Source of the DNA: an uncultured Acidobacteriota bacterium | Lineage (GTDB): Bacteria; Acidobacteriota; Terriglobia; Terriglobales; Acidobacteriaceae | Assembly (NCBI GenBank): GCA_963757135.1 | Contig: CAVWQE010000008.1 | Location: forward strand, 469,167-533,166 | Direction: 5' to 3' | Length of the DNA stretch: 64,000 nt | Part shown: positions 1 through 15,900 of the stretch, one piece after another | How the letters are laid out: each line of letters starts with the position of its first letter | How positions within the stretch are numbered: position 1 is the first letter of the stretch | Position numbers and translations under genes: made by a program | Notes under the pieces: model-generated | Seen by the model: only the letters and a program-made list of their open reading frames with translations | Told to the model about the DNA's origin: nothing | Databases searched by the model: none

Positions 1-694
1 GCCGAAAGAGACGGTTACGCTGGTTGCGCCCTCGATGGACATTCCGGTCATGAAGCCGGCGAAAGCTCCGTCAGGTGGCGGTGGCGGCGGTGGCGACCGC
101 GACAAGTTCCAGGCGCCTAAGGGGAATATCCCCAAGCCGGCGATGGAGCAGATTACGCCTCCAGCGATTGTTGTCCGCAACGATCATCCCAAACTGGCGG
201 TTGAACCCACAGTGGTGATGCCTCCACAAGTGAAGCTGGCGATGAATGCGCCGAACCTCGGCAATCCTACGGCGGCGATGCCGTCGGGCCCGCCTTCGAA
301 TGGAACCGGTTCAGGCGGCGGCATCGGCTCAGGCTCGGGCGGCGGCATCGGCGTCGGCACCGGACCGGGAGTTGGCGAAGGCCGCGGCGGCGGAATCGGA
401 GGCGGTGTGTTTCGTGTGGGCGGCGGCGTGAGTGCGCCCAAAGTCACCTATCAGCCTGACCCGGAGTATTCGGAAGAGGCCCGCAAAGCGAAGTACCAGG
501 GCGTGTGTGTTCTGAGCTTGATTGTTGGACCTGATGGCAAGCCGCGCGACGTTAAGGTCGCACGCAGCCTCGGCTTAGGCCTGGATGAGAAGGCGATTGA
601 AGCCGTTAACCAGTGGAAGTTTGAACCGGCTCAAAAGGACGGCAAGCCAGTCGCTGTCGCGATTAACGTAGAAGTGACTTTCAGGCTTTATTGA
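1..694 (+). CDS. TonB-family protein, C-terminal domain (5' partial; the frame is open to the window edge)
   Basis: Gly/Pro-rich linker followed by a TonB_C-like end (VSAPKVTYQPDPEYSEEARKAKYQGVCVLSLIVGPDGKPRDVKVARSLGLGLDEKAIEAVNQWKFEP). The reading frame is open upstream of the ATG at 35. Confidence 0.75.
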   Translation, partial: PKETVTLVAPSMDIPVMKPAKAPSGGGGGGGDRDKFQAPKGNIPKPAMEQITPPAIVVRNDHPKLAVEPTVVMPPQVKLAMNAPNLGNPTAAMPSGPPSNGTGSGGGIGSGSGGGIGVGTGPGVGEGRGGGIGGGVFRVGGGVSAPKVTYQPDPEYSEEARKAKYQGVCVLSLIVGPDGKPRDVKVARSLGLGLDEKAIEAVNQWKFEPAQKDGKPVAVAINVEVTFRLY

Positions 695-752: not shown

Positions 753-1583
753 TTATTCTTTAAGGTCCACGTGGGTGATGTTTACGATCTTCTGGCCAAG
801 GAACGAAGATCCCAGGCGACGGAATTTTTCAGTCGAGTCGGTGACGAAGAATCTGAGCTGCCCCGTTGTTTTCGCTTCTGGCGGGTCGAGTTGAGGGCCC
901 TGGTTGGCTCTGAGAATGTTGTGTACCGCCAACGCGGTGGACTCAGCAGAGTCGACAAGCGTGACATGGTCTGGCGCGACGCGCTGCAGAAGCGGCTTCA
1001 GCAGAGGATAGTGCGTGCAGCCGAGAAGCAGAACATCAGCGGGAGCGAAACCATCACTGAACGCTTCATTCAAATAAATGCGCGCCACTTGCTCGGTCAC
1101 GGGATGGTCCACCCAGCCTTCTTCCACCAGCGGGACCAATAGAGGGCAGGCCTTCTCGCGTGCTTCGATGTTCAACGCAGCCAGAGCCTTCTGGTATGCA
1201 TGACTCGATATTGTGGCATCAGTGCCTACCACGACAACTTTGCGCTCTCGCGACGCCAGTTTCGCCTGCTGTGCCCCGGGCTCGATAACGCCGACCACCG
1301 GCACCGAAGATGCTTTCTTGATCTGATCCAGCGCGAGGGCGGTGGCCGTGTTGCAGGCGATCACCAGCATCCCTGCGCCTTGCTGCTCGAGGAACTTGGC
1401 GGCTTCGCAAGCGTAGCGGGCAACGGTCTCGACGGATTTCGACCCGTAGGGCAGGCGAGCCGTGTCTCCAAAGTAGAGATAATCGGCGTCGGGGACAACT
1501 TCAAGTAAAGCTTTAAGTACGGTCAGCCCTCCGAAGCCGGAGTCGAAGACGCCGATAGAGTTATGCACGAATATAGTGTACAC
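753..1583 (-). CDS. murI: Glutamate racemase
   Basis: IGVFDSGFGGLTV, GDTARLPYGSKS, VIACNTA and LGCTHYP motifs typical of MurI. The start is GTG at 1583 or GTG at 1568. Confidence 0.9.
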   Translation of the reverse strand: MYTIFVHNSIGVFDSGFGGLTVLKALLEVVPDADYLYFGDTARLPYGSKSVETVARYACEAAKFLEQQGAGMLVIACNTATALALDQIKKASSVPVVGVIEPGAQQAKLASRERKVVVVGTDATISSHAYQKALAALNIEAREKACPLLVPLVEEGWVDHPVTEQVARIYLNEAFSDGFAPADVLLLGCTHYPLLKPLLQRVAPDHVTLVDSAESTALAVHNILRANQGPQLDPPEAKTTGQLRFFVTDSTEKFRRLGSSFLGQKIVNITHVDLKE

Positions 1584-1592
1584 TATTGTCGT

Positions 1593-1814
1593 ATGAAAAA
1601 CATTACTTTAAGCGCGGAAGAACATCTCATCGAAGAAGCGAGACGAACGGCGCAGGCGCAGCACAAGACGCTGAATGCGGCTTTTCGTGAGTGGCTCGAA
1701 CAATATACTGCGCAAAGTGGGGATGTTGAGGCCTACGAGCGATTGATGAAGAAACTCAGAGGTCGTGTAGTCGCCGGCCGCAAATTCAGCCGGGAAGAAA
1801 TGAATGAAAGGTAG
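1593..1814 (+). CDS. Small antitoxin (ribbon-helix-helix/VapB-like)
   Basis: About 73 aa (MKNITLSAEEHLIEEARRTAQAQHKTLNAAFREWL). It overlaps the downstream PIN gene by 11 nt. The internal ATG at 1593 is preferred over 1563, which would overlap murI. Confidence 0.6.
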   Translation: MKNITLSAEEHLIEEARRTAQAQHKTLNAAFREWLEQYTAQSGDVEAYERLMKKLRGRVVAGRKFSREEMNER

Positions 1815-2223
1815 GTTTTTTCTAGACACCAATGTGTTTGTCTACGAATTTGACTCGCGTGCTCCCGCCAAGGCGGCGCAAGCCTCGGCGCTGATCCGAA
1901 CGGCCCTTCGGACGAAACGCGGAGTGGTGAGTTATCAGGTTATTCAGGAGTTCTTTAACGTCGCGTTTAAGAGCTTTTTGAAACCGCTCCCTGTTGACGA
2001 TGCTGAGAATTATCTCCGAACCATCTTCATGCCATTACTTGCGGTTCATTCCTCTGCCCGGCTTTACGTTGAAGCGATCCGCATCAGGGATTCCCACCGC
2101 CTCTCTTGGTACGACTCCTTAATAGTTTCGGCAGCACTCGATGCTGATTGCGAGATCCTATATTCAGAAGATCTTCAAGATGGACGAAAATTGGAAGGCC
2201 TGACGATCCAGAACCCGTTCTAG
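1804..2223 (+). CDS. vapC: PIN-domain ribonuclease toxin (VapC family)
   Basis: 139 aa. N-terminal FLDTNVFVY acidic motif, later SWYDSLIVSAAL and a C-terminal SEDLQDG acidic residue. Paired with the upstream small ORF. Confidence 0.75.
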   Translation: MKGRFFLDTNVFVYEFDSRAPAKAAQASALIRTALRTKRGVVSYQVIQEFFNVAFKSFLKPLPVDDAENYLRTIFMPLLAVHSSARLYVEAIRIRDSHRLSWYDSLIVSAALDADCEILYSEDLQDGRKLEGLTIQNPF

Positions 2224-2241: not shown

Positions 2242-3462
2242 CTAAACCGTATTCCGACGAGCCCGAACTTCCGCAATATCCAACAATTCCGTCCGGGCGC
2301 AGCATTGGCCCGGGGGTATAGCCGCTCCATGCGGGCACGTCTTCGGATGGCCCAGAAAGGTGCAGATTTTGTCGGTAGCCTCTGGCGAAAGAATATGTTC
2401 GAACTTGCAGGCTTGCTGCTCGATTTCGGTTTCGCTGTCGAGAGCAAGGCTATCGGTGAACAAGCGTTCAGCCAGGCGATGTCTGCGGATAATATCCGCC
2501 GCGCGCTGTCGCCCGCGGTCAGTCAGCTCCACGATCATGCTGCCGTCGCCAATCGAAACGCCGGAAGGCTTGAGCGCGTCGTGGCATGGATTCACGAATG
2601 GCTTGTGATCGTGCGCTAACGGCGGATGCGGCGCAGTGGTCAGCAAGCCCATATCGCGCATGCGTTCGACGGCAAGGCTCACCGGCAGCGCGCCGTGCAC
2701 TTCCATGTGTTCGATCTCGGCGATCTCTCCGTGTTCTTCCATAGCCCACAGTTCTTCGAGGACTTCGTCGAATTGCTCGTCGTCGGCCATGGAGAAAACT
2801 TCCTGCGCCGCGATTTTGCCATGGTGGAGTTCGATTCGACGATCGCTCAGGCGCGCCACCACCGGATCGTGCGTCACCATGACGATGGTTCGGCCCTGAC
2901 TGTGCAGCTCGCGCAAGAGACGCAGCACAATTTCTTCGTTCGCGGCATCGAGATTGCCGGTAGGCTCATCCGCGAGAATAATTTTGGGATCGTTGATTAA
3001 GGCGCGGGCAATGCACACACGTTGCTGTTCACCGCCCGAGAGCTGCGCCGGAATGTGGTGAGCCCGGTCTTTCAGCCCCACTCGGGCGAGCGCGGCCAAG
3101 GCTTCCTGCTCGTCAGTCATGCTGTGGAAGTATTGCGCCAGCATGACGTTCTCAATGGCCGAAAGATACGGAATGAGGTGGAACTGCTGGAAAACAAATC
3201 CAATCTTTTCGGCCCGCACCCGGTTGAGATCGTTGGTGCTGAGAGAAGCGACATTTTCATTGTCGAGCCAGATTTCGCCGGAACTGGGGCGATCGAGACA
3301 GCCGATGAGATTCACCAGGGTAGATTTCCCCGAGCCCGACGGGCCCATGATGGCAATCCATTCGCCGGAGTCAACCTGCAAGCTGAAATCGTCTAGGGCA
3401 CGAATACCGCCACCGGCGCTTCTCGCTGCATAAATTCTGCTGACATTTTTCAGCCGGATCAT
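2242..3462 (-). CDS. ABC transporter ATP-binding protein (MacB/LolD-like) fused to a C-terminal DtxR/IdeR-like metal-dependent regulator module
   Basis: Walker [10 protein letters not shown], signature LSGGEQQR, Walker B ILADEPT, H-loop VTHD. The C-terminal roughly 170 aa contain [10 protein letters not shown]...[11 protein letters not shown]...[14 protein letters not shown], which resembles DtxR helices and metal-site residues. Confidence 0.8.
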
Positions 3463-4580
3463 TATTCGCCCCTCAGAATCATAGCGGGCTGGATGGCGCG
3501 CAGCAATCGCAAGGGAAGCAACGTCGCCAAGAGCGTTACGGCCAGACAGCCGAGCAGAACGGAGGGCAGCACGCTAAGCCGCAGCGCGACAGGAGCATGA
3601 AAGTTGGCGCGGCCAATCCATTCAGCGATGCCGAATCCGGCGGCAAATCCGATAACACCGCCGGTCAATCCCAAAATTGCGGCTTCCCCGGAGACGAATG
3701 CGGCGATCAGACGATCAGAAGCCCCCAGCGCCTTCATGATGGCGAAATCACGGCGCCGGTCAAAGACCCAGCCCATGAGGGTTGCGAGCACGCACAGCGC
3801 AGCTATCGACACGATGAACGAGGAAGACCACAGCAGAGTAGAGCGCGTCTTACCAAGAATGTTGGCCTCGCCCTCTGTGACCTGCCGCACCGCGCGCACG
3901 TCGGCGGATGGCAGAGCAGTGCGAAGATCCTGAATCGTTGTACTGATATCTTGCGCAGAACCGAACGCCGAAATCTCAATCACGGAGGGTTCAATGCCAG
4001 TCCAGGCGCGGAAGCTTTGAAGTGAGATATAGACGCGGCTGTCTTCACCGGCCCCGGTGTGAACGCTTCCCGCTGGAGACAGACTAAGGCGGCGCCCCTG
4101 AAAGGTCAGGGTGAAAGGAGCGCCGCTGTTTTGATTCAGCAATTGCGCAGCGCGCACTCCCACCAAGGCTTCGTCGTCGGCGGTTGGCCACGCACTGACC
4201 GACCACCACGGATTCAACTCGCGTGCGGCAGCAAAGTCGGTTCCTGCAACAACGATCGGTTGATCTTTGTCGGTGCGAGCGACAGCGTAAGCGAAGGGAA
4301 CTGCCAAGCCGCGGCCTCTGAGTGTCGAAGCAATCTTCTGGACTAGGTCCGGCATTAATGTCCCGCCAGTGCCCGATTGCACTACAATGTTCGCGCCAAA
4401 TTTCCGGAATTCCTTGCGCAGCTTGGTTTGAACATCCACGTAGAGGTTCAGCATCGCTGTGGCAGCCGCGGCCGCGACGATGACAGCCGCGAGGGCTGCT
4501 GCCGCTTGTCCTTTGCGCAGCACAGCCGCGCGCCTCAGCATGCGGAAGTACATTGCGGGCCTGGCGGCGCTTCCGCTCAT
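3462..4580 (-). CDS. ABC transporter permease, FtsX/MacB-type
   Basis: N-terminal TM helix, a large periplasmic domain, then the C-terminal FtsX-like TM bundle (DFAIMKALGASDRLI...). 1-nt and 4-nt overlaps with neighbouring genes. Confidence 0.8.
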   Translation of the reverse strand: MSGSAARPAMYFRMLRRAAVLRKGQAAAALAAVIVAAAAATAMLNLYVDVQTKLRKEFRKFGANIVVQSGTGGTLMPDLVQKIASTLRGRGLAVPFAYAVARTDKDQPIVVAGTDFAAARELNPWWSVSAWPTADDEALVGVRAAQLLNQNSGAPFTLTFQGRRLSLSPAGSVHTGAGEDSRVYISLQSFRAWTGIEPSVIEISAFGSAQDISTTIQDLRTALPSADVRAVRQVTEGEANILGKTRSTLLWSSSFIVSIAALCVLATLMGWVFDRRRDFAIMKALGASDRLIAAFVSGEAAILGLTGGVIGFAAGFGIAEWIGRANFHAPVALRLSVLPSVLLGCLAVTLLATLLPLRLLRAIQPAMILRGE

Positions 4581-5830
4581 GCTTCACCTCGCAATGCGAG
4601 CACCGGATCGTATTTGACCGCGCGACGAATCGCGAGCGCACTGCCGGCGAAGGTCACGGCAACTGCGAGACCCAGGATGACGGGCAGCAGCACCGGCGCG
4701 ACTGCGATCTTCGAACCGAAAATCGCGCGGCCCAGTTCGCGTGCCAGCAGCGTTCCAAAGAAGAAACCGACGATACCGCCTCCGATTGCCAGCAGCACTG
4801 CCTCCGTGATGTAGATCATAGAAAGCGGAAAATATCCGGCGCCGAGCGCTTTCATCAGTCCCACTTCCGTGCGTCGCTCGAACATTGCCGTTGCCATTGC
4901 CGCGGAAACGGCCAGCCCTGACGTGAATAGCGCAGCCAGCGTAATCAGCAGAATGATTCCCTTAATGCGCGACAAAATGCCGCCTTCGTTCTGCGCAACC
5001 TGGCGAATCTGTTCGGCGTGCGAATGCGGAATCGCTTCCCGCAACTGGAAGGCGATTGACTGTGGATATGGCGAACAGTACCAGCGATCGCGATCAGCGG
5101 GGCTGAGTGAGTCAGGATTACGCCGGGCAAACGCGTCTTCAGGCTTGGTGACGGCGCTGACATAAATCTTGCGGACAGCGCCCGGCTTTCCGGCGAGGGT
5201 TTGTGCGAGCCGGAGAGGAGCCACAATCTGCTCATCTTCGGCTCCGCCAGTGGAAAGAATTCCCGAGACGTGATGTTGATTGCCGTCGATCGCAAGTTGG
5301 GCTCCCGGGGTAACTCCGAGATTGCCCGCAAGTTGTTCGCCTACGAGTACGTCGTCGGAATCATCGGCCGGCCACGCGCCGTGCACCTTCCACCAGGGAA
5401 ACGCTTTCTGTGCGCCGGTCGTTAACGTGTCTTTGCCGAATTGCAATTGCTTAGCGAAATATGTTCCCAAGAGCGTGACTTGGCCGGAGCCGGCCTGCAC
5501 GTTGACCGGAAGTTCGGGCGCAAATGCCGTAATGTTGTTTCGCCAGAAAATCCCCTTGATCTTTGGAAGAGCTGATTCGTCGAGATACGCTCCGTTAGTG
5601 GACGGTTTAAAGTTGACGCTGCCTATCTGCACATCGAGAGTGTCTTCCTCAGGCGTGACCACCAGGTTGGCGCCATAAGTGCGGAGCTCGCGGCTGATCT
5701 TGTCCCCAATGCCGGTGGCAATTCCGATCATCGCCGTCGAAACCGTTGCGCCGAGGGTCACAGCGATCGCCACCAGCAGCTTGCGGCGGGTCTGCCGTCG
5801 AAAAGATTCATAGACGAGTCGAACGAACAT
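4577..5830 (-). CDS. ABC transporter permease, FtsX/MacB-type
   Basis: Same architecture as the neighbouring permease (EVGLMKALGAGYFPL, C-terminal TM bundle). Overlaps the downstream permease gene. Confidence 0.8.
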   Translation of the reverse strand: MFVRLVYESFRRQTRRKLLVAIAVTLGATVSTAMIGIATGIGDKISRELRTYGANLVVTPEEDTLDVQIGSVNFKPSTNGAYLDESALPKIKGIFWRNNITAFAPELPVNVQAGSGQVTLLGTYFAKQLQFGKDTLTTGAQKAFPWWKVHGAWPADDSDDVLVGEQLAGNLGVTPGAQLAIDGNQHHVSGILSTGGAEDEQIVAPLRLAQTLAGKPGAVRKIYVSAVTKPEDAFARRNPDSLSPADRDRWYCSPYPQSIAFQLREAIPHSHAEQIRQVAQNEGGILSRIKGIILLITLAALFTSGLAVSAAMATAMFERRTEVGLMKALGAGYFPLSMIYITEAVLLAIGGGIVGFFFGTLLARELGRAIFGSKIAVAPVLLPVILGLAVAVTFAGSALAIRRAVKYDPVLALRGEA

Positions 5831-5839
5831 AAAAAGAAG

Positions 5840-7087
5840 TCAGCGCTGAAAGATGTGCGCTCCCGCCGCCACATCAGATTCATGAATCACAATGTCTCCG
5901 CCGTTAGTGGTTGATTGCAGCGGCAGGGGATTGCAGCCTCCGGGAGTGCCTACGGATTGGGGGTTGATCGGCGCGGCGCAGTTCTTGCAGACCAGCCCAT
6001 TCGGCCCCTTGAAGAAGCCGACCGGGCCGCAGATCTGACAGGCGTCAAATACCGCGACAACTTTGCCGTCCGGCTTTTGATAAAGCAAGAAGCGAATCTC
6101 GGTCCCGTTCTCGTGGACTGAGAAGCGATGTAGATCGCCGTCAGAAACTTGCCCCAATGGAATATTTGCGACGCCGTTGACAAAGCTGACCGGAGTCGCC
6201 GGAGAAAGCTGGCTCGTGCTCTTGGCGTAAATAAATTCGGCGGTGACCAGCATGATGAATACGAACGAAGTTACGTAGACAGACATCGTCCATAGGCGCT
6301 CACGCCGCGCAGTCCAGGCGGCTTTCCGCTTTTCTGCGGAAGTCTCAGGCACTGGCGCAGGCTGACGGCGCTTGGCATCGAACAGCAACATCAGTGCCGC
6401 CAGAGCGAGGATTAGAACGATAAAGAACCATTCGTTGCTCACGATGGGCCCAATCAACGCCATCTCTTCTTTGGAAGAGGGAAGCACGCCGTTTTCTGAG
6501 AGCTCGTGCAGTCCGGAGATGATCAACTGGCCAGCAACGAGGAACAAAATCACCGTGGTGACGCGGAAAAACTTTTGCAGATTAATGCGGACGCTGCCTT
6601 TAACAAACATCACTCCGAACAGCACTGCCGCGAAGATGCCGGCAAGGGTTCCGATAAAGCTGAGAAGCGCGCTGGAGTTCAGAGTCACGGCAGCGAGGAA
6701 CAGAACAGTTTCCGCGCCTTCACGCAAGATCATCAGAAAGACAAACAGGAACACGCCGATCTGCGAACCGCGGCTGGTCAATGTACCCAGCTTGCCTTCG
6801 ATCTCGCCTTTCATCTTCTTGCCGGTTCGGATCATAAAGATGATCATGGTGACGACGAAGAAAGCAGCCGCCAGCATGACCCAGCCTTCGAAGATGTCTT
6901 CATTCAGTTGCAGGCGAGACAGGGCAATAGCGACGCCGATACTGGCAATGAAGGCAGCACCGAGTCCAAAAAAGACGGAGCGGCGGAGGTCCGGCCTTTG
7001 GACCTTATTCAGATACGCGAGCGTAATGCCGACGATGAGCGCGGCTTCGACGCCTTCGCGCAGAGTGACAATAAAAGCTTCGAGCAA
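5840..7087 (-). CDS. FTR1-family iron permease fused to a Cys-rich DUF2318-like C-terminal domain
   Basis: Two REXXE motifs (LREGVEAALIV, LREGAETVLFL) in a multi-TM N-terminal half. The C-terminal half has FDACQICGPVGF...CKNCAAPINPQSVGTPGGCNPLP. TTG start. Confidence 0.8.
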   Translation of the reverse strand: MLEAFIVTLREGVEAALIVGITLAYLNKVQRPDLRRSVFFGLGAAFIASIGVAIALSRLQLNEDIFEGWVMLAAAFFVVTMIIFMIRTGKKMKGEIEGKLGTLTSRGSQIGVFLFVFLMILREGAETVLFLAAVTLNSSALLSFIGTLAGIFAAVLFGVMFVKGSVRINLQKFFRVTTVILFLVAGQLIISGLHELSENGVLPSSKEEMALIGPIVSNEWFFIVLILALAALMLLFDAKRRQPAPVPETSAEKRKAAWTARRERLWTMSVYVTSFVFIMLVTAEFIYAKSTSQLSPATPVSFVNGVANIPLGQVSDGDLHRFSVHENGTEIRFLLYQKPDGKVVAVFDACQICGPVGFFKGPNGLVCKNCAAPINPQSVGTPGGCNPLPLQSTTNGGDIVIHESDVAAGAHIFQR

Positions 7088-7114
7088 GGGTGTCCTTTTG
7101 GAGGAAGTTACAGA

Positions 7115-7129
7115 TGCAACTGAGTTGCA
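7115..7129. promoter_or_regulatory. Perfect 7-1-7 palindrome TGCAACT-G-AGTTGCA, a candidate operator upstream of the FTR1 operon
   Basis: Read directly from the sequence. It lies 28 to 42 nt upstream of the FTR1 start, in the 98-nt gap after ndh. Confidence 0.4.
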
Positions 7130-7185
7130 ACTAGCTGACTAATCTTAAGGATAGCTGCACTCGGAGAGGCAGTCAATGCGCGGAC

Positions 7186-9275: not shown

Positions 9276-11159
9276 CTACTGCGTATCCACGCCAAAGCCC
9301 AAGATCGCATTCACCGCGACCGCCTGATTTCCGCGAGTTGCGGGGGTCAACTTCCACTCCGGTACAGCAAGTAGCATCTTTTGCGCGAACTCGCTGCCGT
9401 CTGATTGCAGAAGATGGGCGTTCTTCACATTGCCATTGCTGTCGAGCTCGCAGCCGATCAGCACCTTTGAGTGATGCTGGCCACGCAGCAGCTCTGACGG
9501 AACATAGGCTTCCAGCACTCGCGGCGCAATCAGTTCTGTGGTGTAAGCGTGGCCAACAGAAGCTGGATCGGCAAACTGCATAACCGCGGTGCCAATTCGC
9601 GTGTTGATGTAGATGGTGTAAACGCGGTCGCCTTTTAACGCGCCGTAAAGATTCAGTGCACCGCCGGCACGCGGGCTGGCAATTACCGTAATGCCGTTGC
9701 CCATGTTCTTTGCAATATCTGAGTGTCCCGCCGGAGCCGGACTCGCCGGGCCGCCGAAGCTGGGAAGTGTAATTGAATTCTTGCCGCCGGAGACAGAGAC
9801 CCCAGGGGCTCGCGGCGTTCCGCTGCTCAGATTTCCCGTCCCGCCGGGGCCGAGATTGGGCGAGTTGCCGTTGCGGGCGTAGAAGTCGGTGCCCTTGTCG
9901 TTCCCAACAGTTGTTGCGCCAGCCGATGAACCGGATTCGGAACTGCCGGTTCCTTTGCCGGGTTGCATACCTGTGCCGCCGCCGGTCCCTCCGGAGCCGA
10001 GGTTGGTTGATCCTCCGTGTGCCATGGCAACGGTGGTTTTTTCGTCGTTCTTCGGAGCGGCCTGTTTTGGACCTGGATTCGGAGTGACGATCACGCCAAC
10101 GGTATGAGAATCGGCGGATCCAACTGGCTGCCGAAAAGCGGCGGGAAGATCTGGCGAGGGAGAGGCGACGATTGAGGCAAGCTGGTCGTTTCGTCCAACC
10201 GCAGATGAGGCATCGATCTTTGGAGCAGCCATCGTGTTTGGATCAGAAGAGGGTTTGCGCGAGCGGGCAACCTTGATCGGTGAAGGCGCTGGTGGAGGCG
10301 CCTGCACGGCCGTGTTCGTCTCGGGGAGATCAGGCATTTGTTGTCGCGCGCTAATCTTTGGAGCAGACGGTGAGGGGAGGGTAAGCCGGGCGCGATTATG
10401 CGTTACTTTGATGGGCGCGGCAACCGGAGGGGGGGCGACTGCTGCCACGCTGGTTGCCGGCAAATTCGGCATTGCGTTTTTCGGAAGCGAAACTTTCGGC
10501 GGCGCAACTACTGCGGATGTTGTTTTGTTGCGGTGCTCGCGATTCGCACGTACCAAAATCGGAGGCGTGGTGATGGCCGGCCGTACTATCGGCGGGGGGT
10601 CGGGTGCGGGTGGAACCGCAGTTTTGTAGGTCAACAGGTTCGATATCTGCGAATCAGATTGCGGCAAATGGAGGTCAGGAGCATCGACAACGCGAGCACG
10701 CAACTTTTCTCCGCGTGCGACCTTGATGGTTTGGGATGGATGCTGAAGGGAAGTGCCTCCGCGCGCACCCTGCTGACCAGCAGAACCGCCGGCAAGATCC
10801 TGAGTGCGCGGTAGCTCATCGGCCGAGAAATAGATCACATCGTGAGTCTGCGAAGACGGTTGAACAGACTCACGCCGAAGTACTTCAGATGGAACAGCAA
10901 TGACTGTGGCCAGCGCCGCGACTTCGAGCAAGAGAGCCAAGAGCATGCCGCGAAGAGGGAAGAGGCCGGCGTGTGCCTCAACATGCACTCGCGGAGGCGA
11001 GGGCCTCAGAGCGGGCCCAAGCGCAGAAATAAAGTCGCGCCACGGCGATGACCACTGAATCAGAAGCTGGGGAGAGTCGTTCACTCGGCGGCCTCGTGCA
11101 CGGGCGCTGCCTGCGCAATTAGTCCGCAAAAGTGTTTCCAATGGGTATTCGCCAGGCAC
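9276..11159 (-). CDS. Membrane-anchored proline-rich protein with a TonB-like C-terminal domain
   Basis: One TM helix (MLLALLLEVAALATVIAV), long Pro/Ala-rich repeats (APPP..P.PIKV occurs twice), and a C-terminal beta-rich end (NGNVKNAHLLQSDGSEFAQKMLLAVPEWKLTP). Confidence 0.45.
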   Translation of the reverse strand: MPGEYPLETLLRTNCAGSARARGRRVNDSPQLLIQWSSPWRDFISALGPALRPSPPRVHVEAHAGLFPLRGMLLALLLEVAALATVIAVPSEVLRRESVQPSSQTHDVIYFSADELPRTQDLAGGSAGQQGARGGTSLQHPSQTIKVARGEKLRARVVDAPDLHLPQSDSQISNLLTYKTAVPPAPDPPPIVRPAITTPPILVRANREHRNKTTSAVVAPPKVSLPKNAMPNLPATSVAAVAPPPVAAPIKVTHNRARLTLPSPSAPKISARQQMPDLPETNTAVQAPPPAPSPIKVARSRKPSSDPNTMAAPKIDASSAVGRNDQLASIVASPSPDLPAAFRQPVGSADSHTVGVIVTPNPGPKQAAPKNDEKTTVAMAHGGSTNLGSGGTGGGTGMQPGKGTGSSESGSSAGATTVGNDKGTDFYARNGNSPNLGPGGTGNLSSGTPRAPGVSVSGGKNSITLPSFGGPASPAPAGHSDIAKNMGNGITVIASPRAGGALNLYGALKGDRVYTIYINTRIGTAVMQFADPASVGHAYTTELIAPRVLEAYVPSELLRGQHHSKVLIGCELDSNGNVKNAHLLQSDGSEFAQKMLLAVPEWKLTPATRGNQAVAVNAILGFGVDTQ

Positions 11160-11229: not shown

Positions 11230-12180
11230 CTACTTTCGTACCGCCGGGGACAGTTCGTGGAGGAGTTCGATCAGTGCCGGCCCGAGGGTTACAAATATCA
11301 GCGGGAGCAGCGCAAACACAACCAGAGGGATGATCATCTTGGTGGAAGTCTTGGCCGCAGCTTCTTCGGCTCGACGGCGACGCTCGGTGCGCAGCGCGTC
11401 GGAGTAAAGGCGGAGAGCCTGGGCAATGCTGGTTCCGAAGCGGTCGGTCTGTACAAGGGCGCTGACGAGAGCGCGAACGTCGTCCACGCCGGTACGGGCC
11501 GCCAGGCTGCGAAGCGCGTCGGCGCGAGGCTTGCCGGCCCGCATCTCAAGATTGGAAATATAAAATTCCTCGCTCAACGCCGGATGCGCGTACTTCAGGT
11601 CCTCACCTACTCGCAGCAGAGCATTGTCGAGCGCGAGCCCGGCCTCGACGCAGACCACCGTCAGGTCCAGTGCATCCGGCAACCCCACGGTAATTTCGCG
11701 CTGACGGATGCGGATGAGGCGCTTCAAAATGAAGCGGGGCAGAAATAGTCCGAGCGCGGCAGCGCCAGCCAGCAAGGCCACGGAATCAAAGCCGGTTACT
11801 GCCAGCGCAAAGAGGAACAACGCTGCGGCTCCGACGATTCTGCTGCCTTGATATATCACCAGATGCCGGCGCTCGCGGAATCCTGCCTGAATCAGCCAAA
11901 TGCGCGAGCGGTCTCCGGGAGAAAGTTGCAAAGCTCGGCCCAAGGGATCGAGTACATGGTCCATACGCTCGCGAAAGCTGGATTTCTGGCGCGCCGCAGA
12001 GGGCTCAACCCCGAGCGACTTCAGCCTTTCGCCCAATACCGACGAAGGCGCGTAAGCAGCGGAGGCCAAAGCAAAGACGGCCACAGCGACTGCTACGAAT
12101 ACGAAGATTGCGATCACCGGCAGCATGGGACTGGATCTTGATCCGTCAGACCTCGATCTGAATGATCCTCCTGATGACAA
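11230..12180 (-). CDS. tadC: Tad/Cpa platform protein, type II secretion system F family (TadC-like)
   Basis: T2SSF-type polytopic protein (GLPDALDLTVVCVEAGLALDNAL...). Last gene of the cpa/tad block. Confidence 0.75.
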   Translation of the reverse strand: MSSGGSFRSRSDGSRSSPMLPVIAIFVFVAVAVAVFALASAAYAPSSVLGERLKSLGVEPSAARQKSSFRERMDHVLDPLGRALQLSPGDRSRIWLIQAGFRERRHLVIYQGSRIVGAAALFLFALAVTGFDSVALLAGAAALGLFLPRFILKRLIRIRQREITVGLPDALDLTVVCVEAGLALDNALLRVGEDLKYAHPALSEEFYISNLEMRAGKPRADALRSLAARTGVDDVRALVSALVQTDRFGTSIAQALRLYSDALRTERRRRAEEAAAKTSTKMIIPLVVFALLPLIFVTLGPALIELLHELSPAVRK

Positions 12181-13123
12181 AATATCCGATCGTCTGCAAG
12201 CTTATACCGGCAGCCAGCAGCATGTGACCGATGGGATCGTCGAATAGCGGCCGTATGAACGACGGATTCACAAACAGCATGGTCACCACAATAACGGGGG
12301 GCAGCGCCATTAACAGCATCATGGTGAGGCGCCCTTGAGCGGTATAAACCCTGACCTGGCGCAGAATCTTGAAGCGCTCACGAATCATATAAGAAAGATT
12401 ATCGAGAATTTCTGCGAGATTGCCGCCGGTCTCACGCTGCAACATAACCGCCGTGACGAAAAACTTGACATCCATTAGCGGCATGCGCTGGGTCAGGTTC
12501 AGCAGGGCATCGCGGACGGGCATGCCATATTTCTGTTCCTCATAAAACTTACGGAATTCTGTCGACACCGGTTCGGCCAGTTCGCTACAAAGAATTTCAA
12601 CGGCCATTGTAAAAGCGTGACCAGCCCGGACGGCGCGCGCCAGGGTGTCAATGGCTTCGGGAAATTCTTCTTCGAATTTCTGAAAGCGCCGGTTACGTTG
12701 CCGCGAGGCGTACGAATACGGGACGATCGCGCCGAGGCCGCCACTGACCAGCGTGAACAACAGGTTTTCATTGAACGGGAAGGTGTCAGTAAGCAGATAT
12801 CCGCCTGCACCAAACACGAGCATGCTGATCACTGAATAGATCAGAATGTTGCCAGCGCGCATCGAGAGTCCGGCCTGGTCGAGCAAATTCTGCAGACGCG
12901 AAACCTGTTCTGAACGCCGCAAAAGCAGGTCCAGAGCCGGAATGCGGCTGAACATTTCGTCGCGCAGCAAGGCCATCGCCTCGGAAGACGCTCCGGGCGC
13001 TTGGGCAGCAGCCACGCGTTCGCGAATCAGGCGGGCGCGGGCATTGCGCTGGTCGAGCAATACCAGGAAAGAAAATGCCGCAATGGAAACGGTTACGAAC
13101 AGGATGAGAGGTATTAAAAGCAT
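12146..13123 (-). CDS. tadB: Tad/Cpa platform protein, type II secretion system F family (TadB-like)
   Basis: T2SSF domain (FPEAIDTLARAVRAGHAFTMAVE...). Immediately downstream of the CpaF ATPase gene. Confidence 0.75.
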   Translation of the reverse strand: MLLIPLILFVTVSIAAFSFLVLLDQRNARARLIRERVAAAQAPGASSEAMALLRDEMFSRIPALDLLLRRSEQVSRLQNLLDQAGLSMRAGNILIYSVISMLVFGAGGYLLTDTFPFNENLLFTLVSGGLGAIVPYSYASRQRNRRFQKFEEEFPEAIDTLARAVRAGHAFTMAVEILCSELAEPVSTEFRKFYEEQKYGMPVRDALLNLTQRMPLMDVKFFVTAVMLQRETGGNLAEILDNLSYMIRERFKILRQVRVYTAQGRLTMMLLMALPPVIVVTMLFVNPSFIRPLFDDPIGHMLLAAGISLQTIGYFVIRRIIQIEV

Positions 13124-13132
13124 TTCTCCCGC

Positions 13133-14428
13133 TTAGACCTCCGTCCGGGTCTCAAACAGCTCGGGCCGCAATGGATATCCCGCAGTCGCCAGACGTTCTG
13201 TAAACCGCGATTTTGCTCCCGTCGCCCGAAATACACCATGCACTTTACCGGCCTTGTCGATTCCGCTGCGGTCGAAGGTGAAGATGTCCTGCATCCAGAT
13301 GCTGTCGGCTTCCATGCCTGTGATTTCAGAAATTGACATGATCTTGCGGGTGCCGTCGGTAAGCCTGGCAACCTGAACCACAATGTGAATCGCCGAAGTA
13401 ATCTGTTGTCGAATCGCCCGCTCGGGAATATTCAGGTTCGCCATGGAGAACATACTTTCCAGCCTGGCCAGGGCATCTCGCGGCGTGTTAGCGTGCACCG
13501 TGGTGAGCGAGCCTTCGTGGCCGGTGTTCATCGCCTGCAGCATGTCAAAGGTTTCTTCGCCGCGCACTTCGCCGATGATGATGCGGTCAGGGCGCATACG
13601 CAGGCTGTTGATGACCAACTGACGTTGTCGAACCGCGCCCTTTCCTTCAATGTTTGGCGGCCGTGTCTCCAGCCGCACAACGTGTTCCTGCTTGAGTTGT
13701 AACTCGGCGGCGTCTTCGATGGTGACCACGCGTTCGTAGTCCGGAATAAAGCCGGAGAGAACGTTCAGCAATGTAGTCTTGCCGGCGCCGGTCCCGCCGG
13801 AGATCAGAATGTTCAGCCGGGCCTTGACCATGCAGACTAGTGTTTCAAGCATGGAATCAGTCAGCGTGCGGTTCTCAATCATGTTGCGTGAAGTGATGGG
13901 ATCGCGGCCAAAGCGGCGGATCGAAAGCACCGGGCCGTCAAGCGCCAGTGGGGGAATGATCGCATTTACGCGCGAACCGTCGGCAAGGCGTGCATCAACC
14001 ATGGGCGAGCTTTCATCCACGCGGCGCCCTACGCGCGAAACGATGCGGTCGATGATCTGCATCAGGTGGGCGTCGTCTTTGAAGCTGAGGCCGGTGATTT
14101 CCAGCTTGCCACCGCGCTCCACATAAACTTTGTTGTAACGGTTGACTAAAATGTCCGAAATTGTTGGATCCTTTAGCAGTTGCTCCAGCGGGCCAAGGCC
14201 GAAAATCTCGTCGAGAATCTCACGCGACAAGCGCTCACGTTCGGCGAAGCTGAGAGGCACGGCTTCACTGTTGACAGTGCCTCGGATGACAAGGAGAACT
14301 TCCTCACGGGCAGCGGCGCTGGGGGTGCGCCCCAGTTTTTCCAGATCCAGGCGGTCCAGAATCTTACGGTGCAGGTCGGCTTTTACCTGCTGATAGCTGC
14401 TGCGCTCAAATGCTTGAAGATTCGGCAT
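13133..14428 (-). CDS. cpaF: CpaF/TadA-family secretion ATPase
   Basis: Walker [10 protein letters not shown], Asp box and Walker B ([11 protein letters not shown]), His box ([12 protein letters not shown]). Confidence 0.9.
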
Positions 14429-14439
14429 AACATCAGCCC

Positions 14440-15900
14440 TTACTTTTTGGCTCCGCCATTGGATCCTTGTCCATCAAACTTGCCCTTGTCCATGAACGGC
14501 TGCGGATACTTCGGCGTCCCTGGCGTCTGCGCATTCGGGAAAATGCGGTGAACGGTGCACAGTACAACCAGTTCGGTAGTGCTTTTTTGCATGTTCTTGC
14601 TGCGGAATAAATTACCCAGAATCGGAATGTCTCCCAGCCCTGGGACCTTGCTGTATTGATCGGTGACTCGGTTGTCCATCAATCCCGCAATCACGAAGCT
14701 CTGTCCATCCTGCACTTCAAACTCCGTCTGTGCGCGACGGGTGCTCAAGGCAGGAACTGTAAAGCCGGATATCGTCAATGCATTGGTGAAATCGAGCTGA
14801 CTGACCTCCGGCACTACCTGCAAATGGATGTTGCTATTAGGCATGATCACAGGTGTGAATTTCAGTTTCACACCGAACTCACGGAATTGGATGGTGACGG
14901 CGGTGAAGCCTTGTCCAGGCTGCACGATGGGGAAGGGAAACTCACCACCGGCCAGGAAGCTGGCTTCTTTGCCGTTGACTGCGATCAGGTTCGGCTCGGC
15001 GAGGATCTCAAGAAGGTTTTTTTGTTGCAGGGCCTGAATCACCGCTCCCAGATTGATGTCGGGGCGAAACAGGAACAAATTCAGCGGTTGATTGAAATTG
15101 ATAGCGGGGGTGGTGGCGGTGCCCGAACCAGTGCTGGAGGTCCCGCCGGCACCCGAACTTCCCGTCTGAAAGCCGCCGAACTGCCCCGTAGTGCTCGTAC
15201 CGATAGTATTTGCCGCGCCGTTGCTGAAGATGTTCACTCCCAGCTGGGTTACGGCAGTGCGGTCGACCTCGGCAAATTTGACCTCCAGTAAAACTTCTTG
15301 CGCGCCCACAGGGCCAAATGTCAGAACGTTGATCACGTTCTTGGAATAGGCGGCCGCCACCATCCCGGCATGTTTGGCGACGTCTTCGGTAGTCACGTGT
15401 CCGGATAGCACAATGGCCGAGCGGGATGCCGAGATATCAATCTGCTCATCAGGGAAGATTCTCTTGATCTCTTCGCGTGCAGCCGTCACATCCACGTCCA
15501 CACGTAAGTCAAAGCTGCGCGAACGCTCAAACTCATCCCAGATGAGCAGGGAAACTTCGCCTGGTGAGCGTCCATGTACTAGCACCTGGGTTGGGGTGAC
15601 GACTAACGCGTCGGCGATTTCGGGATCAGTGACCGAGACACGCTTGAGTTTGTCCGTGGTGTTGATCAGCAGAGACTTGCCCACCATGACCCGCAGGGGC
15701 GCGGGCCCTTCTTCTTCGGCAGGAGTTTGTGCCGGGGTTGCGGTAGGGGTCTGTGCGGGTGCTGACGTTGAGGCGGGAGTCTGGCTTTGCGTATCCGGAG
15801 CCGGCGGAGTTGCGGCAGACTGCTGTGCCGCGCAAACTGCCCCGAGCACCAGGGCGATCACGAAATGGAGACCGCGAGAATCTGAAAATTGCTTGCGCAT
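14440..15900 (-). CDS. cpaC: Tad secretin (CpaC/RcpA family)
   Basis: Signal peptide, a BON-like N-terminal pilus-assembly domain, and a C-terminal secretin domain ([16 protein letters not shown]). Confidence 0.85.

What the first reader, a model, noticed from the sequence alone, without database searches (positions are those of the whole stretch)
2242..3462. ABC-transporter ATPase fused to a complete DtxR/IdeR-type metal-sensor module
Residues 1 to about 225 form a normal MacB/LolD-like nucleotide-binding domain ([28 protein letters not shown]). The same open frame continues for another 170 aa or so that read like a DtxR-family regulator. First comes a winged-helix-like segment ([15 protein letters not shown]...[12 protein letters not shown]). 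Then comes the dimerisation/metal-binding core [10 protein letters not shown]...[11 protein letters not shown]...[14 protein letters not shown]. The Cys-x-x-Glu-His triad corresponding to DtxR C102/E105/H106 is preserved in ACKFEH. The His/Glu pair of the ancillary site is preserved in RRHRLAE. The gene closes an iron-permease operon. I see two readings. The module could be a cytoplasmic Fe/Mn sensor that trans-inhibits the transporter, as the C-terminal regulatory domains of MetN and ModC do. Alternatively it could be a membrane-tethered repressor of its own operon. I do not recall either arrangement being described for DtxR-type domains.
Basis: partly seen in the sequence, partly recalled or inferred. 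Interest (0 to 1): 0.75.

Follow-up and report, generated by a model that had tools for sequence, protein, structure and literature searches.

The report
Iron-pump ATPase with built-in DtxR-type sensor
The motor subunit of an iron-uptake system in soil Acidobacteria carries at its tail a domain borrowed from an iron-sensing gene repressor, which most likely lets internal iron switch the pump off directly; this arrangement is conserved in many species but was not described in the papers searched.

Summary
A 406-aa ORF on the minus strand (3462..2242) joins a MacB/LolD-type ABC ATPase (aa 1-222) to a two-domain DtxR-fold module (aa 223-388). Pfam Fe_dep_repr_C scores E=1e-25, and Foldseek matches two-domain IdeR/DtxR at TM 0.74-0.79.

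It is not an artefact. All 80 related species genomes examined have an intact fused frame. At least three further clades show the fusion, and all named members are Acidobacteriota. The gene is always last in an FTR1/DUF2318, FtsX, FtsX, ATPase operon, a compact Fet-type iron-uptake system.

The metal-ligand positions are invariant. The DNA-reading positions are replaced and vary, the winged helix has a net charge of -13, and the Pfam HTH model is not met.

The operon promoter carries a 7-1-7 Fur-type box. The box changes type between close relatives with no matching change in the module. A distant clade has a fur gene inside the operon.

Best reading: a cytoplasmic Fe(II) sensor that regulates the ATPase after translation, like MetN or ModC trans-inhibition but with a different fold. 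The tethered-repressor reading is disfavoured. No description turned up in the literature searches. It is a new variant of a known kind, and the mechanism is inferred, not shown.

The parts
2242..3462 (-). Whole fused gene: FetD-type ABC ATPase plus DtxR-fold module (406 aa plus stop)
   Evidence: ORF; Pfam ABC_tran plus Fe_dep_repr_C; intact in 80/80 related loci
2797..3462 (-). Nucleotide-binding domain, aa 1-222 (Walker A 40-48, Q-loop Q92/Q93, signature 141-148, Walker B/E166, H198)
   Evidence: Pfam E=2.8e-36. NCBIfam best partial matches are MacB, LolD and FtsE, all below their own cut-offs. Foldseek to MJ0796, MacB, LolD and FtsE NBDs at TM 0.87-0.91.
2524..2796 (-). Short linker plus degenerate, acidic winged-helix-like domain, aa 223-313 (helix 226-243 carrying E233/E236; helix 261-270; strands 274-278 and 309-313)
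   Evidence: AF2 secondary structure; Foldseek superposition on the IdeR/DtxR N-domain; PF01325 only 12.7 bits; hhalign aligns aa 260-274 to IdeR 40-54; net charge -13
2536..2631 (-). Clade-specific roughly 30-aa insertion in the wing, aa 278-309, with conserved H279, H284, H286, C293, H294
   Evidence: Conserved at 0.84 mean column identity in Terriglobia but absent from the P0154, P0164 and P0137 clades; low pLDDT
2299..2523 (-). DtxR-type dimerisation/metal-binding domain, aa 314-388. Ligand equivalents H328, E332, E348, C352, E355, H356, plus invariant C367, H372, C376, H378, C387, C388
   Evidence: Pfam PF02742 E=9.8e-26; PDB phmmer E about 1e-14; hhalign probability 99%; mean column identity 0.92, the highest in the protein; invariance across clades
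3462..4580 (-). FtsX/MacB_PCD permease (FetC-like), 372 aa; its stop overlaps the start of the ATPase gene
   Evidence: Pfam FtsX 3.1e-16, MacB_PCD 9.5e-06; conserved gene order
4577..5830 (-). FtsX/MacB_PCD permease (FetB-like), 417 aa
   Evidence: Pfam FtsX 6.1e-11, MacB_PCD 6.3e-11; conserved gene order
5840..7087 (-). FTR1 iron permease fused to an FtrD-like/DUF2318 domain (FetM+FetA-like), 415 aa, with two REGxE motifs and CxxC-x13-CxxC-x14-C
   Evidence: Pfam FTR1 3e-40 and FtrD-like 2.3e-30; motifs read from the translation; DUF2318 motif as defined in PMC6083913
7112..7132 (.). Operator-like 7-1-7 palindrome (core TGCAACT-N-AGTTGCA at 7115-7129) between the promoter-like site and the FTR1 start
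   Evidence: Conserved at the same position in 19 loci and replaced by TGAAAAT-N-ATTTTCA in 51 loci.
7148..7176 (-). Sigma-70-like promoter candidate TTGACT-17-TATCCT
   Evidence: Consensus scan only

Best explanation
The gene encodes the ATPase subunit (FetD-type, MacB/LolD class) of a compact Fet-type FTR1 iron-uptake system in Terriglobia. A DtxR-fold module has been welded onto its C-terminus. The module keeps the metal-binding/dimerisation domain and the N-terminal helix that supplies ligands, but it has lost the features needed to read DNA.

Proposed mechanism:
1. The two ATPase copies in the transporter pair their DtxR-type domains beneath the NBDs.
2. When cytoplasmic Fe(II) (possibly Mn(II)) rises, it binds the sites formed by E233/E236 on helix 1 and by H328, E332, E348, C352, E355 and H356.
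3. This clamps helix 1, which continues directly from the last NBD strand, onto the dimerisation domain and restrains NBD closure.
4. ATP hydrolysis stops, and with it iron uptake. This is trans-inhibition, fast feedback layered on top of slower Fur-family transcriptional repression acting at the 7-1-7 box.

Shown: the architecture, its conservation, ligand invariance, decay of the DNA-reading surface, the operon context, and the Fur-type operator and fur gene. Inferred: metal binding, dimerisation beneath the NBDs, and the direction of the effect (inhibition).
For: - Fusion real and ancient: 80/80 loci intact. Further clades at about 50% identity include P0164/Polarisedimenticolia, where 120 of 120 top hits carry both domains, plus the P0154 and P0133/Bryobacterales clades.
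- Always the last gene of FTR1/FtrD, FtsX, FtsX, ATPase operons.
- The dimerisation/metal domain is the most conserved region: 0.92 against 0.87 for the NBD.
- E233, E236, E332, E348, C352, E355 and H356 are invariant or nearly so across clades.
- The fold equals two-domain IdeR/DtxR. Helix 226-243 starts 3 residues after NBD strand 216-222.
- NBD catalytic motifs are intact.
- DNA-reading equivalents are lost or variable: Q43 becomes L/I or S/Q/E/A, S37 becomes H or G, P39/T40 are changed, and the R27 region is deleted. Net charge is -13 against about -4 for canonical N-domains.
- Transcription has its own regulator: a Fur-type 7-1-7 box in every clade and a fur gene in the operon in L086-L088.
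- Precedent for C-terminal NBD domains causing trans-inhibition: MetNI and ModABC (PMC10710835).
- The closest standalone relatives lie next to feoB.
- FetBCD is needed for growth at low iron in Campylobacter (PMC10783030).
Against: - No experiment and no multimer model, so dimerisation under the NBDs and any effect on ATPase activity are untested.
- The inter-domain geometry of the monomer model is uncertain (pTM 0.63).
- The winged-helix-like part is itself well conserved within Terriglobia (0.81) and R/K267 (the R47 equivalent) is retained, so it has some conserved interface that this model does not explain.
- The conserved His/Cys wing insertion and the invariant C367/C376/C387/C388 set are also unexplained.
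- The ligand set is mixed: Glu at the M10 position as in MntR, Cys at the C102 position as in DtxR. Metal identity is therefore open.
- H328 is Gln in 12 of 51 members of one clade.
- MacB-type ABC systems work by mechanotransmission rather than import, and the role of FetBCD is unknown, so 'switching off uptake' assumes the ATPase is required for FTR1-mediated uptake, as it is in Campylobacter.
Confidence: 0.55

Rival explanations
1. Membrane-tethered repressor. The fused DtxR module binds the palindrome upstream of the FTR1 gene when loaded with metal and represses its own operon from the membrane, as ToxR or CadC-type tethered regulators act.
For: The two-domain DtxR fold, including a winged-helix-like domain, is retained. 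R/K267, the equivalent of DNA-contacting R47, is conserved. A conserved palindrome sits between the promoter and the start codon.
Against: - The palindrome has the 7-1-7 Fur-family architecture.
- It switches between TGCAACT and TGAAAAT types among close relatives, yet the putative recognition helix is the same in both groups and no residue of the module discriminates them.
- A fur gene heads the operon in a distant clade.
- PF01325 is not met.
- Q43, S37, P39, T40 and R27 equivalents are changed or deleted, and they vary within clades.
- Net charge is -13.
Confidence: 0.06
2. Positive regulation or metal hand-off. The module binds incoming Fe(II) at the cytoplasmic face, either activating the ATPase (as CDF C-terminal domains activate export) or acting as a first acceptor or chaperone for iron leaving FTR1, rather than inhibiting.
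For: The same ligand invariance and tight NBD coupling apply. Metal-binding cytoplasmic domains that activate transporters are known, for example YiiP and CzcD (PMC10710835). The extra invariant Cys/His set and the His/Cys-rich insertion give more potential metal sites than a simple switch needs.
Against: The operon sits behind a Fur-type box, so it is presumably expressed when iron is low, and Fet genes are needed at low iron. Activation by high cytoplasmic iron would be counter-productive for an uptake system. Nothing in the data gives the sign of the effect.
Confidence: 0.17
3. Purely structural dimerisation or scaffold domain. The DtxR-type domain only holds the two ATPase subunits together, or docks them to FTR1/DUF2318. 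Any bound metal is structural, not a signal.
For: In the family the DtxR domain 2 is a dimerisation domain (PMC11672702). The invariant C367/C376/C387/C388 set looks like a structural Zn site. H328 is replaced by Gln in part of one clade.
Against: The regulatory-site ligands, including those on helix 1 (E233, E236), are invariant across clades at about 50% identity. A mere dimerisation handle would not need that. FetD homologues elsewhere work without such a domain.
Confidence: 0.12
4. Internal translation start at M225 releases a free 182-aa DtxR-like protein that acts separately, as a soluble sensor or regulator, alongside the fused form.
For: M225 is 91% conserved. AGGAAG lies 8-9 nt upstream of its ATG in 63 of 81 loci, and the E221 codon is almost always GAA. 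Gene callers start there on broken contigs.
Against: Synonymous-site variation upstream of M225 is not unusual (rank 69 of 327 windows). The 'standalone' database entries examined are frameshift artefacts. The free protein would still lack DNA-reading residues.
Confidence: 0.05
5. Assembly or frameshift artefact joining two adjacent genes.
For: Some database entries show the DtxR-like part as a separate 182-206 aa protein.
Against: Those entries come from indel-prone long-read assemblies. In L001 the frame switches inside VTHDP|VVARL, and the neighbouring permease genes are broken too. 80 of 80 species genomes from many projects keep one frame.
Confidence: 0.01

Closest known systems
MetN (C2/NIL domain) of MetNI and ModC (TOBE-type domain) of ModABC: trans-inhibited ABC importers
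   Same: An extra domain directly C-terminal to the NBD. It dimerises beneath the NBD pair, binds the cytoplasmic form of the transported species, and prevents NBD closure (PMC10710835). The position of the extra domain and the logic of feedback match.
   Different: Unrelated fold (DtxR versus NIL/TOBE). The ligand would be a metal cation. The host transporter is MacB/FtsX-type (mechanotransmission class) working with an FTR1 permease, not a type I importer. Nothing has been tested biochemically here. Foldseek overlap with MetN is limited to the NBD.
DtxR / IdeR / MntR metalloregulators
   Same: The two-domain fold, PF02742, and the ligand equivalents H79, E83, C102, E105 and H106. The acidic residues on helix 1 sit at the positions of MntR D8 and E11 (inferred from the motif match).
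   Different: Not a free protein. PF01325 is not met. DNA-reading residues are lost. The N-domain is strongly acidic. There is no SH3 domain. H98 is replaced by Glu and M10 by Glu. There is an extra invariant Cys/His set, and a wing insertion in Terriglobia.
FetD (Cj1663) within the fetMP-fetABCDEF system of Campylobacter jejuni and E. coli
   Same: Same operon logic: FTR1 permease, DUF2318 membrane protein, two FtsX-type permeases and one ABC ATPase. All are needed at low iron (PMC10783030, PMC6083913).
   Different: Here FetM and the DUF2318 protein are one polypeptide. No P19 or thioredoxin genes are in or beside the operon. The ATPase carries the DtxR-type extension, which those papers do not mention.
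FbpC, the ATPase of the Neisseria ferric-iron ABC importer, which has a C-terminal regulatory domain
   Same: An iron-uptake ABC ATPase with an added C-terminal regulatory domain that links the two NBDs (PMC2896483, abstract seen).
   Different: Different fold and transporter type. No metal-sensor ligands are known for FbpC. I did not compare it directly with FbpC here.
Standalone 'DtxR-like + FeoA' proteins (for example P0150, P0158, P0189)
   Same: They share the subfamily signature: an acidic LDExLExLW helix, [18 protein letters not shown] and C.LLGHP..CPHG..IP.G.CC. They also lack a significant PF01325 match. Two of two with readable context lie next to feoB.
   Different: Soluble proteins with a C-terminal FeoA/SH3 domain and no ABC domain. 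Their function is also unknown. The context sample is only two.

Membership tests
ABC transporter NBD, MacB/LolD/FtsE class | Walker A, Q-loop, LSGGQ signature, Walker B with catalytic Glu, H-switch | tested here: met
   GPSGSGKST 40-48, Q92/Q93, LSGGEQQR 141-148, ILADEPT with E166, H198. Pfam ABC_tran E=2.8e-36. S142, G143, E166 and H198 are invariant.
ABC transporter NBD, MacB/LolD/FtsE class | NBD fold closest to MacB/LolD/FtsE, and partner permeases of FtsX/MacB_PCD type | tested here: met
   Foldseek TM 0.87-0.91 to MJ0796, MacB, LolD and FtsE. Two adjacent FtsX+MacB_PCD genes. NCBIfam equivalog cut-offs for MacB, LolD and FtsE are NOT reached, so it is not an orthologue of any of those.
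DtxR/IdeR/MntR metalloregulator family | Dimerisation/metal-binding domain (PF02742) with regulatory ligands | tested here: met
   90 bits against a cut-off of 27. H79, E83, C102, E105 and H106 equivalents are present, with H98 replaced by E. Invariant across clades.
DtxR/IdeR/MntR metalloregulator family | N-terminal winged-helix DNA-binding domain (PF01325) with DNA-contact residues | tested here: not met
   PF01325 scores 12.7 bits against a cut-off of 26. The fold is retained, but Q43, S37, P39, T40 and R27 equivalents are replaced, deleted or variable. Net charge is -13.
DtxR/IdeR/MntR metalloregulator family | Free-standing protein that binds a cognate palindromic operator in a metal-dependent way | tested here: not met
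   Covalently fused to an NBD in all genomes. The operator at the operon is Fur-type 7-1-7 and shows no co-variation with the module. DNA binding itself cannot be tested with these tools.
DtxR/IdeR/MntR metalloregulator family | C-terminal SH3-like domain (present in DtxR/IdeR, absent in MntR-type) | tested here: not met
   Only an 18-residue variable tail follows the CC motif. No FeoA or DtxR-SH3 Pfam hit.
Trans-inhibited ABC ATPases (MetN/ModC type) | Additional domain immediately C-terminal to the NBD | tested here: met
   The module starts about 3 residues after the last NBD strand.
Trans-inhibited ABC ATPases (MetN/ModC type) | Regulatory domains dimerise beneath the NBDs and bind the cytoplasmic substrate at or near the interface | not testable with these tools
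   No multimer prediction is available. This is inferred from conservation of the DtxR dimerisation domain and ligands.
Trans-inhibited ABC ATPases (MetN/ModC type) | Ligand binding inhibits ATP hydrolysis and transport | not testable with these tools
   Needs biochemistry.
Trans-inhibited ABC ATPases (MetN/ModC type) | NIL/ACT-like or TOBE fold of the regulatory domain | tested here: not met
   The module is DtxR-fold. The match to MetN chains is driven by the NBD (TMq 0.52, rmsd about 11 A).
Fet-type (fetMP-fetABCDEF) FTR1 iron-uptake system | FTR1 permease with REXXE motifs, DUF2318 Cys-motif protein, two FtsX permeases, one ABC ATPase in one cluster | tested here: met
   Pfam. REGVE and REGAE motifs and CxxC-x13-CxxC-x14-C in the translation, compared with the motif in PMC6083913. 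The order is conserved in about 76 of 82 loci.
Fet-type (fetMP-fetABCDEF) FTR1 iron-uptake system | Periplasmic P19 (FetP) and thioredoxins FetE/FetF | tested here: not met
   None in the operon or among the immediate neighbours scanned. The rest of the genome was not searched.

The most novel reading that the evidence does not exclude
A transcription-factor fold has been converted into a non-DNA-binding, transporter-resident Fe(II) sensor. It would give an FTR1/MacB-type iron-uptake machine direct, post-translational trans-inhibition by cytoplasmic iron. That would be the first metalloregulator-fold regulatory domain on an ABC ATPase. It would also be the first handle on what the enigmatic FetBCD motor does. 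The invariant extra Cys4/His2 set might add a second (Zn or Fe-S) input.
Probability: 0.5. Interest if true: 0.75.

Novelty: new variant of a known kind. Interest (0 to 1): 0.62.

Why it matters
- Fast, post-translational shut-off of iron uptake is poorly documented in bacteria. Known control is mostly transcriptional, through Fur or DtxR.
- A DtxR-fold sensor wired directly to an ATPase would show how a repressor domain can be re-used as an allosteric transporter switch. It would extend the MetN/ModC trans-inhibition principle to a new fold, a new ligand class and the MacB-type ABC class.
- It would give a tractable entry point to the unknown function of the FetBCD module of FTR1/P19-type systems, which matter for pathogens such as Campylobacter.
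- It concerns a dominant soil phylum: the fusion was found in at least 80 checked species genomes, and several hundred more are candidates.
- On the practical side, fragments of this protein are currently mis-annotated as 'Mn-dependent DtxR family transcriptional regulator'.

Tried and rejected
1. Apparent standalone or split versions (P0011, P0082, P0438, P0449) looked like evidence for a natural two-gene ancestor. All four contexts are indel-fragmented long-read assemblies, so I rejected them as artefacts.
2. I searched the window for more copies of the operator to tie it to a global regulon. There is only the one exact site, the 3-mismatch hits are at chance level, and no type-B box is present. 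In 1.25 Mb of related loci the boxes are almost exclusively at the FTR1 promoter. The regulon question stays open.
3. I looked for fur or dtxR genes in the window and in the Terriglobia flanks by tblastn and found none. A fur gene was found only in the distant clade's operon.
4. A profile search of PDB with alignment A2 was swamped by NBD hits because A2 contains full-length rows, so it was uninformative for the module.
5. A suppressed synonymous rate upstream of M225, as evidence for an internal start, was not significant.
6. P0186 (transketolase plus Fe_dep_repr_C plus FeoA) was considered as another fusion type. It looks like a chimeric or truncated call on a metagenome fragment, and I did not pursue it.
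Full report
**The observation**

The window contains a 406-aa ORF at 2242-3462 on the minus strand. The plus-strand reading of the same coordinates is full of stops.

Pfam gives ABC_tran at aa 23-168 (E=2.8e-36) and Fe_dep_repr_C at aa 314-383 (E=9.8e-26, 90 bits against a cut-off of 27). The N-terminal DNA-binding model of the DtxR family (PF01325) is not reached, scoring 12.7 bits against a cut-off of 26.

A sequence search against PDB chains finds IdeR/DtxR at E=6e-15 to 1e-10. In IdeR numbering, the printed alignment maps:
- H328 = H79
- E332 = E83
- E348 in place of H98
- C352 = C102
- E355 = E105
- H356 = H106

A profile comparison confirms the alignment from the 'recognition helix' onward (IdeR 40-134, probability 99%, E=3e-18).

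**Fold**

AlphaFold2 with a 78-sequence alignment gives mean pLDDT 82 for the whole protein. The module alone gives pLDDT 86 and pTM 0.81.

The NBD superimposes on MJ0796, MacB, LolD and FtsE NBDs at TM 0.87-0.91. The module superimposes on two-domain IdeR/DtxR over about 158 columns, at TM 0.74-0.79 normalised to the target and rmsd about 2.9 A.

The module's elements run in this order:
- helix 226-243
- a very short second element
- helix 261-270
- strand 274-278
- a low-confidence insertion at 279-308
- strand 309-313
- three helices between 315 and 369

This is a winged-helix-like domain followed by the DtxR dimerisation domain. There is no SH3-like third domain. Helix 226-243 begins three residues after the last NBD strand (216-222).

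**Not an artefact**

The 80 best are all single-segment, full-length matches in Terriglobia, Terriglobales, Acidobacteriaceae and Ca. Sulfotelmatobacter MAGs from many projects. All 80 have one uninterrupted frame containing both the Walker A motif and RHRLAE.

Database entries that show the DtxR-like part alone on long contigs come from indel-prone long-read assemblies. In L001 the frame switches inside VTHDP|VVARL, and the neighbouring permeases are broken too.

More distant clades carry the same fusion:
- P0164/Ca. Polarisedimenticolia, about 360 aa. All 120 top hits have both domains.
- P0154, 401 aa.
- P0133/Bryobacterales.

Every organism name attached to these proteins is Acidobacteriota.

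**Context**

The gene is last in an operon on the minus strand:
- FTR1 permease fused to an FtrD-like/DUF2318 domain (7087..5840)
- two FtsX/MacB_PCD permeases (5830..4577 and 4580..3462)
- the ATPase

This order holds in about 76 of 82 loci and in the distant clades.

The FTR1 part has two REGxE motifs. The DUF2318 part has the CxxC-x13-CxxC-x14-C motif described for Campylobacter Cj1660/FetA (PMC6083913). The system is therefore a compact relative of fetMP-fetABCDEF. In that system fetA-D are all required at low iron, but the role of the FetBCD ABC module is stated to be unclear (PMC10783030).

No P19 or thioredoxin genes lie in or beside the operon here.

**What selection acts on**

In an alignment of 85 fusions, mean column identity by region is:

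| Region | Mean column identity |
|---|---|
| Dimerisation/metal domain | 0.92 |
| NBD | 0.87 |
| Wing insertion | 0.84 |
| Winged-helix-like part | 0.81 |
| C-terminal tail | 0.42 |

Across two clades only about 50% identical, the following are invariant or nearly so: E233, E236, E332, E348, C352, E355 and H356, plus C367, H372, C376, H378, C387 and C388. H328 is His except for Gln in 12 of 51 members of one clade.

E233 and E236 map to DtxR M10 and to MntR D8/E11. This rests on the helix-1 motif match (VL..LW.MEEHG against YL..IY.LEEEG) and on the structural superposition, so it is an inference.

The equivalents of the DNA-reading residues behave differently:
- The R27 region is deleted.
- S37 becomes H in one clade and G in the other.
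- P39 and T40 are changed.
- Q43 becomes L/I in Terriglobia and S/Q/E/A within the other clade.
- R50 is variable.
- Only R47 is kept, as K or R.

The segment 225-277 has a net charge of -13, with a family median of -11.

**Transcriptional control is separate**

Footprinting over 73 orthologous promoters shows two types at the same position, mostly 35-50 nt before the start codon:
- type A, as in the window, in 19 loci
- type B, TGAAAAT-N-ATTTTCA, in 51 loci

Other clades have TGCAAAT-C-ATTTACA and TGAGATT-G-AGTCTCA. All are 7-1-7 inverted repeats of the kind used by Fur-family proteins. From my own knowledge, the B. subtilis Fur 7-1-7 motif is TGATAAT-N-ATTATCA, and type B matches it at 12 of 14 specified positions. 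They are unlike the 19-bp IdeR/DtxR box.

The putative recognition helix ([10 protein letters not shown][IL]A[VI]EKM) is the same in type A and type B genomes. The only residue that separates the two groups is position 139, in the NBD.

In the Polarisedimenticolia-type clade the operon opens with a Fur-family gene (PF01475) directly before FTR1. The operon therefore has a conventional iron-responsive repressor, and the fused module is not needed for that role.

**Mechanism proposed**

Two ATPase copies per transporter would bring two DtxR-type domains together. Metal binding at the sites shared between helix 1 and the dimerisation domain is what drives domain closure in DtxR, IdeR and MntR (family description in PMC11672702). 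Here helix 1 is continuous with the NBD.

Metal occupancy should therefore change how the two NBDs can approach each other. Because the system is an uptake system behind a Fur-type box, inhibition at high cytoplasmic Fe(II) is the coherent direction. This is the MetNI/ModABC trans-inhibition principle (PMC10710835) carried out with a different fold.

Cys at the C102 position favours Fe(II), while Glu at the M10 position is MntR-like, so the metal is not settled (selectivity rule from PMC11672702).

The closest standalone relatives share the subfamily signature and also lack a significant HTH match. The two with readable context lie directly after feoB, which fits a ferrous-iron-transporter-associated sensor lineage, although n=2.

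**Rivals**

The rivals, with my confidence in each, are:
- a tethered repressor (0.06)
- activation or iron hand-off (0.17)
- a purely structural dimerisation domain (0.12)
- an internal start at M225 giving a free protein (0.05)
- an assembly artefact (0.01)

The internal-start idea rests on AGGAAG lying 8-9 nt upstream of the M225 ATG in 63 of 81 loci and on a nearly fixed GAA codon at E221. Synonymous variation in that stretch is not unusual (rank 69 of 327).

**Novelty**

Six full-text searches and two recent reviews gave no description of a DtxR-type domain on an ABC ATPase. Databases label the protein 'ATP-binding cassette domain-containing protein', and label its fragments 'Mn-dependent DtxR family transcriptional regulator'. 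The domain pair is visible in precomputed Pfam annotations, so the architecture itself is not hidden.

I rate it a new variant of a known kind: an ABC ATPase with a C-terminal ligand-sensing regulatory domain. It is interesting (0.62) because it recruits a repressor fold, concerns iron, and touches the unexplained FetBCD module. Its mechanism rests on inference only.

Noticed in passing
window 7112-7132; loci L003-L082 upstream of the FTR1 gene; L086 about 3340-3375; L089 about 1845-1870: Orthologous operons carry different 7-1-7 boxes at the same promoter-proximal position: TGCAACT-N-AGTTGCA in 19 loci, TGAAAAT-N-ATTTTCA in 51, TGCAAAT-C-ATTTACA in the P0154 clade, and TGAGATT-G-AGTCTCA in the clade with fur in the operon. 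This suggests a Fur-family regulator whose specificity has shifted between close relatives.
   Followed up: partly
window 2536-2631 (aa 278-309): A roughly 30-aa insertion in the wing of the winged-helix-like domain is specific to the Terriglobia clade. It has conserved H279, H284, H286, C293 and H294 (motif H.H[KR]..[VL]N.CH[DE]AL.P). It is predicted with low confidence and its function is unknown; it may be an extra metal site or a protein interface.
   Followed up: partly
window 2299-2364 (aa 367-388): C367, H372, C376, H378, C387 and C388 are invariant in both fusion clades and are shared with the standalone FeoA-containing relatives (C..FLGHP..CPHG..IP.G.CC). This could be a structural Zn or an Fe-S site that canonical DtxR/IdeR lack.
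   Followed up: partly
window 2788-2804 (M225 codon and AGGAAG upstream, minus strand): A Shine-Dalgarno-like AGGAAG lies 8-9 nt before the conserved internal ATG of M225 in 63 of 81 loci, and the E221 codon is almost always GAA. Overall synonymous variation there is not unusual, so this is only a weak hint of internal initiation.
   Followed up: yes
window 1563-2223 (+ strand): A small antitoxin-like ORF (weak DUF6364 hit) plus a PIN-domain toxin gene sit between the fusion gene and the murI-like racemase gene (753-1583). A PIN match was found in only 4 of 82 related loci, so this looks like a recent insertion of a toxin-antitoxin pair.
   Followed up: partly
L086 3377-3892; L087/L088 3687-4223: In the Polarisedimenticolia-type clade a Fur-family gene (HHHDH...C..C motifs) is the first gene of the same operon, immediately before or overlapping the FTR1/FtrD gene.
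   Followed up: partly
L092 665-3578; L093 14-2189: The closest standalone relatives of the module (DtxR-like domain with no significant HTH match, plus FeoA) are encoded directly downstream of feoB in both cases where context was readable.
   Followed up: partly
L001, L002, L090, L091 (ENA ERZ250394xx-395xx assemblies); database names: Long-read metagenome assemblies split this gene and its neighbours by indel errors. This produces spurious 182-300 aa 'DtxR family' proteins. Fragments of the fusion are widely annotated as 'Mn-dependent DtxR family transcriptional regulator'.
   Followed up: yes
window 35-694, 9276-11159, 11230-15900: There are two TonB C-terminal-domain proteins, one of them with a Gly/Pro-rich linker, and a Tad/type II secretion-like cluster (two T2SSF genes, T2SSE, secretin) downstream of the region. 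No link to the finding was seen.
   Followed up: no
window 5840-7087: The FTR1 permease and the DUF2318 (FetA-like) protein are separate genes in Campylobacter and E. coli. Here, and in all related loci, they are a single polypeptide. This is a second gene fusion in the same operon.
   Followed up: partly
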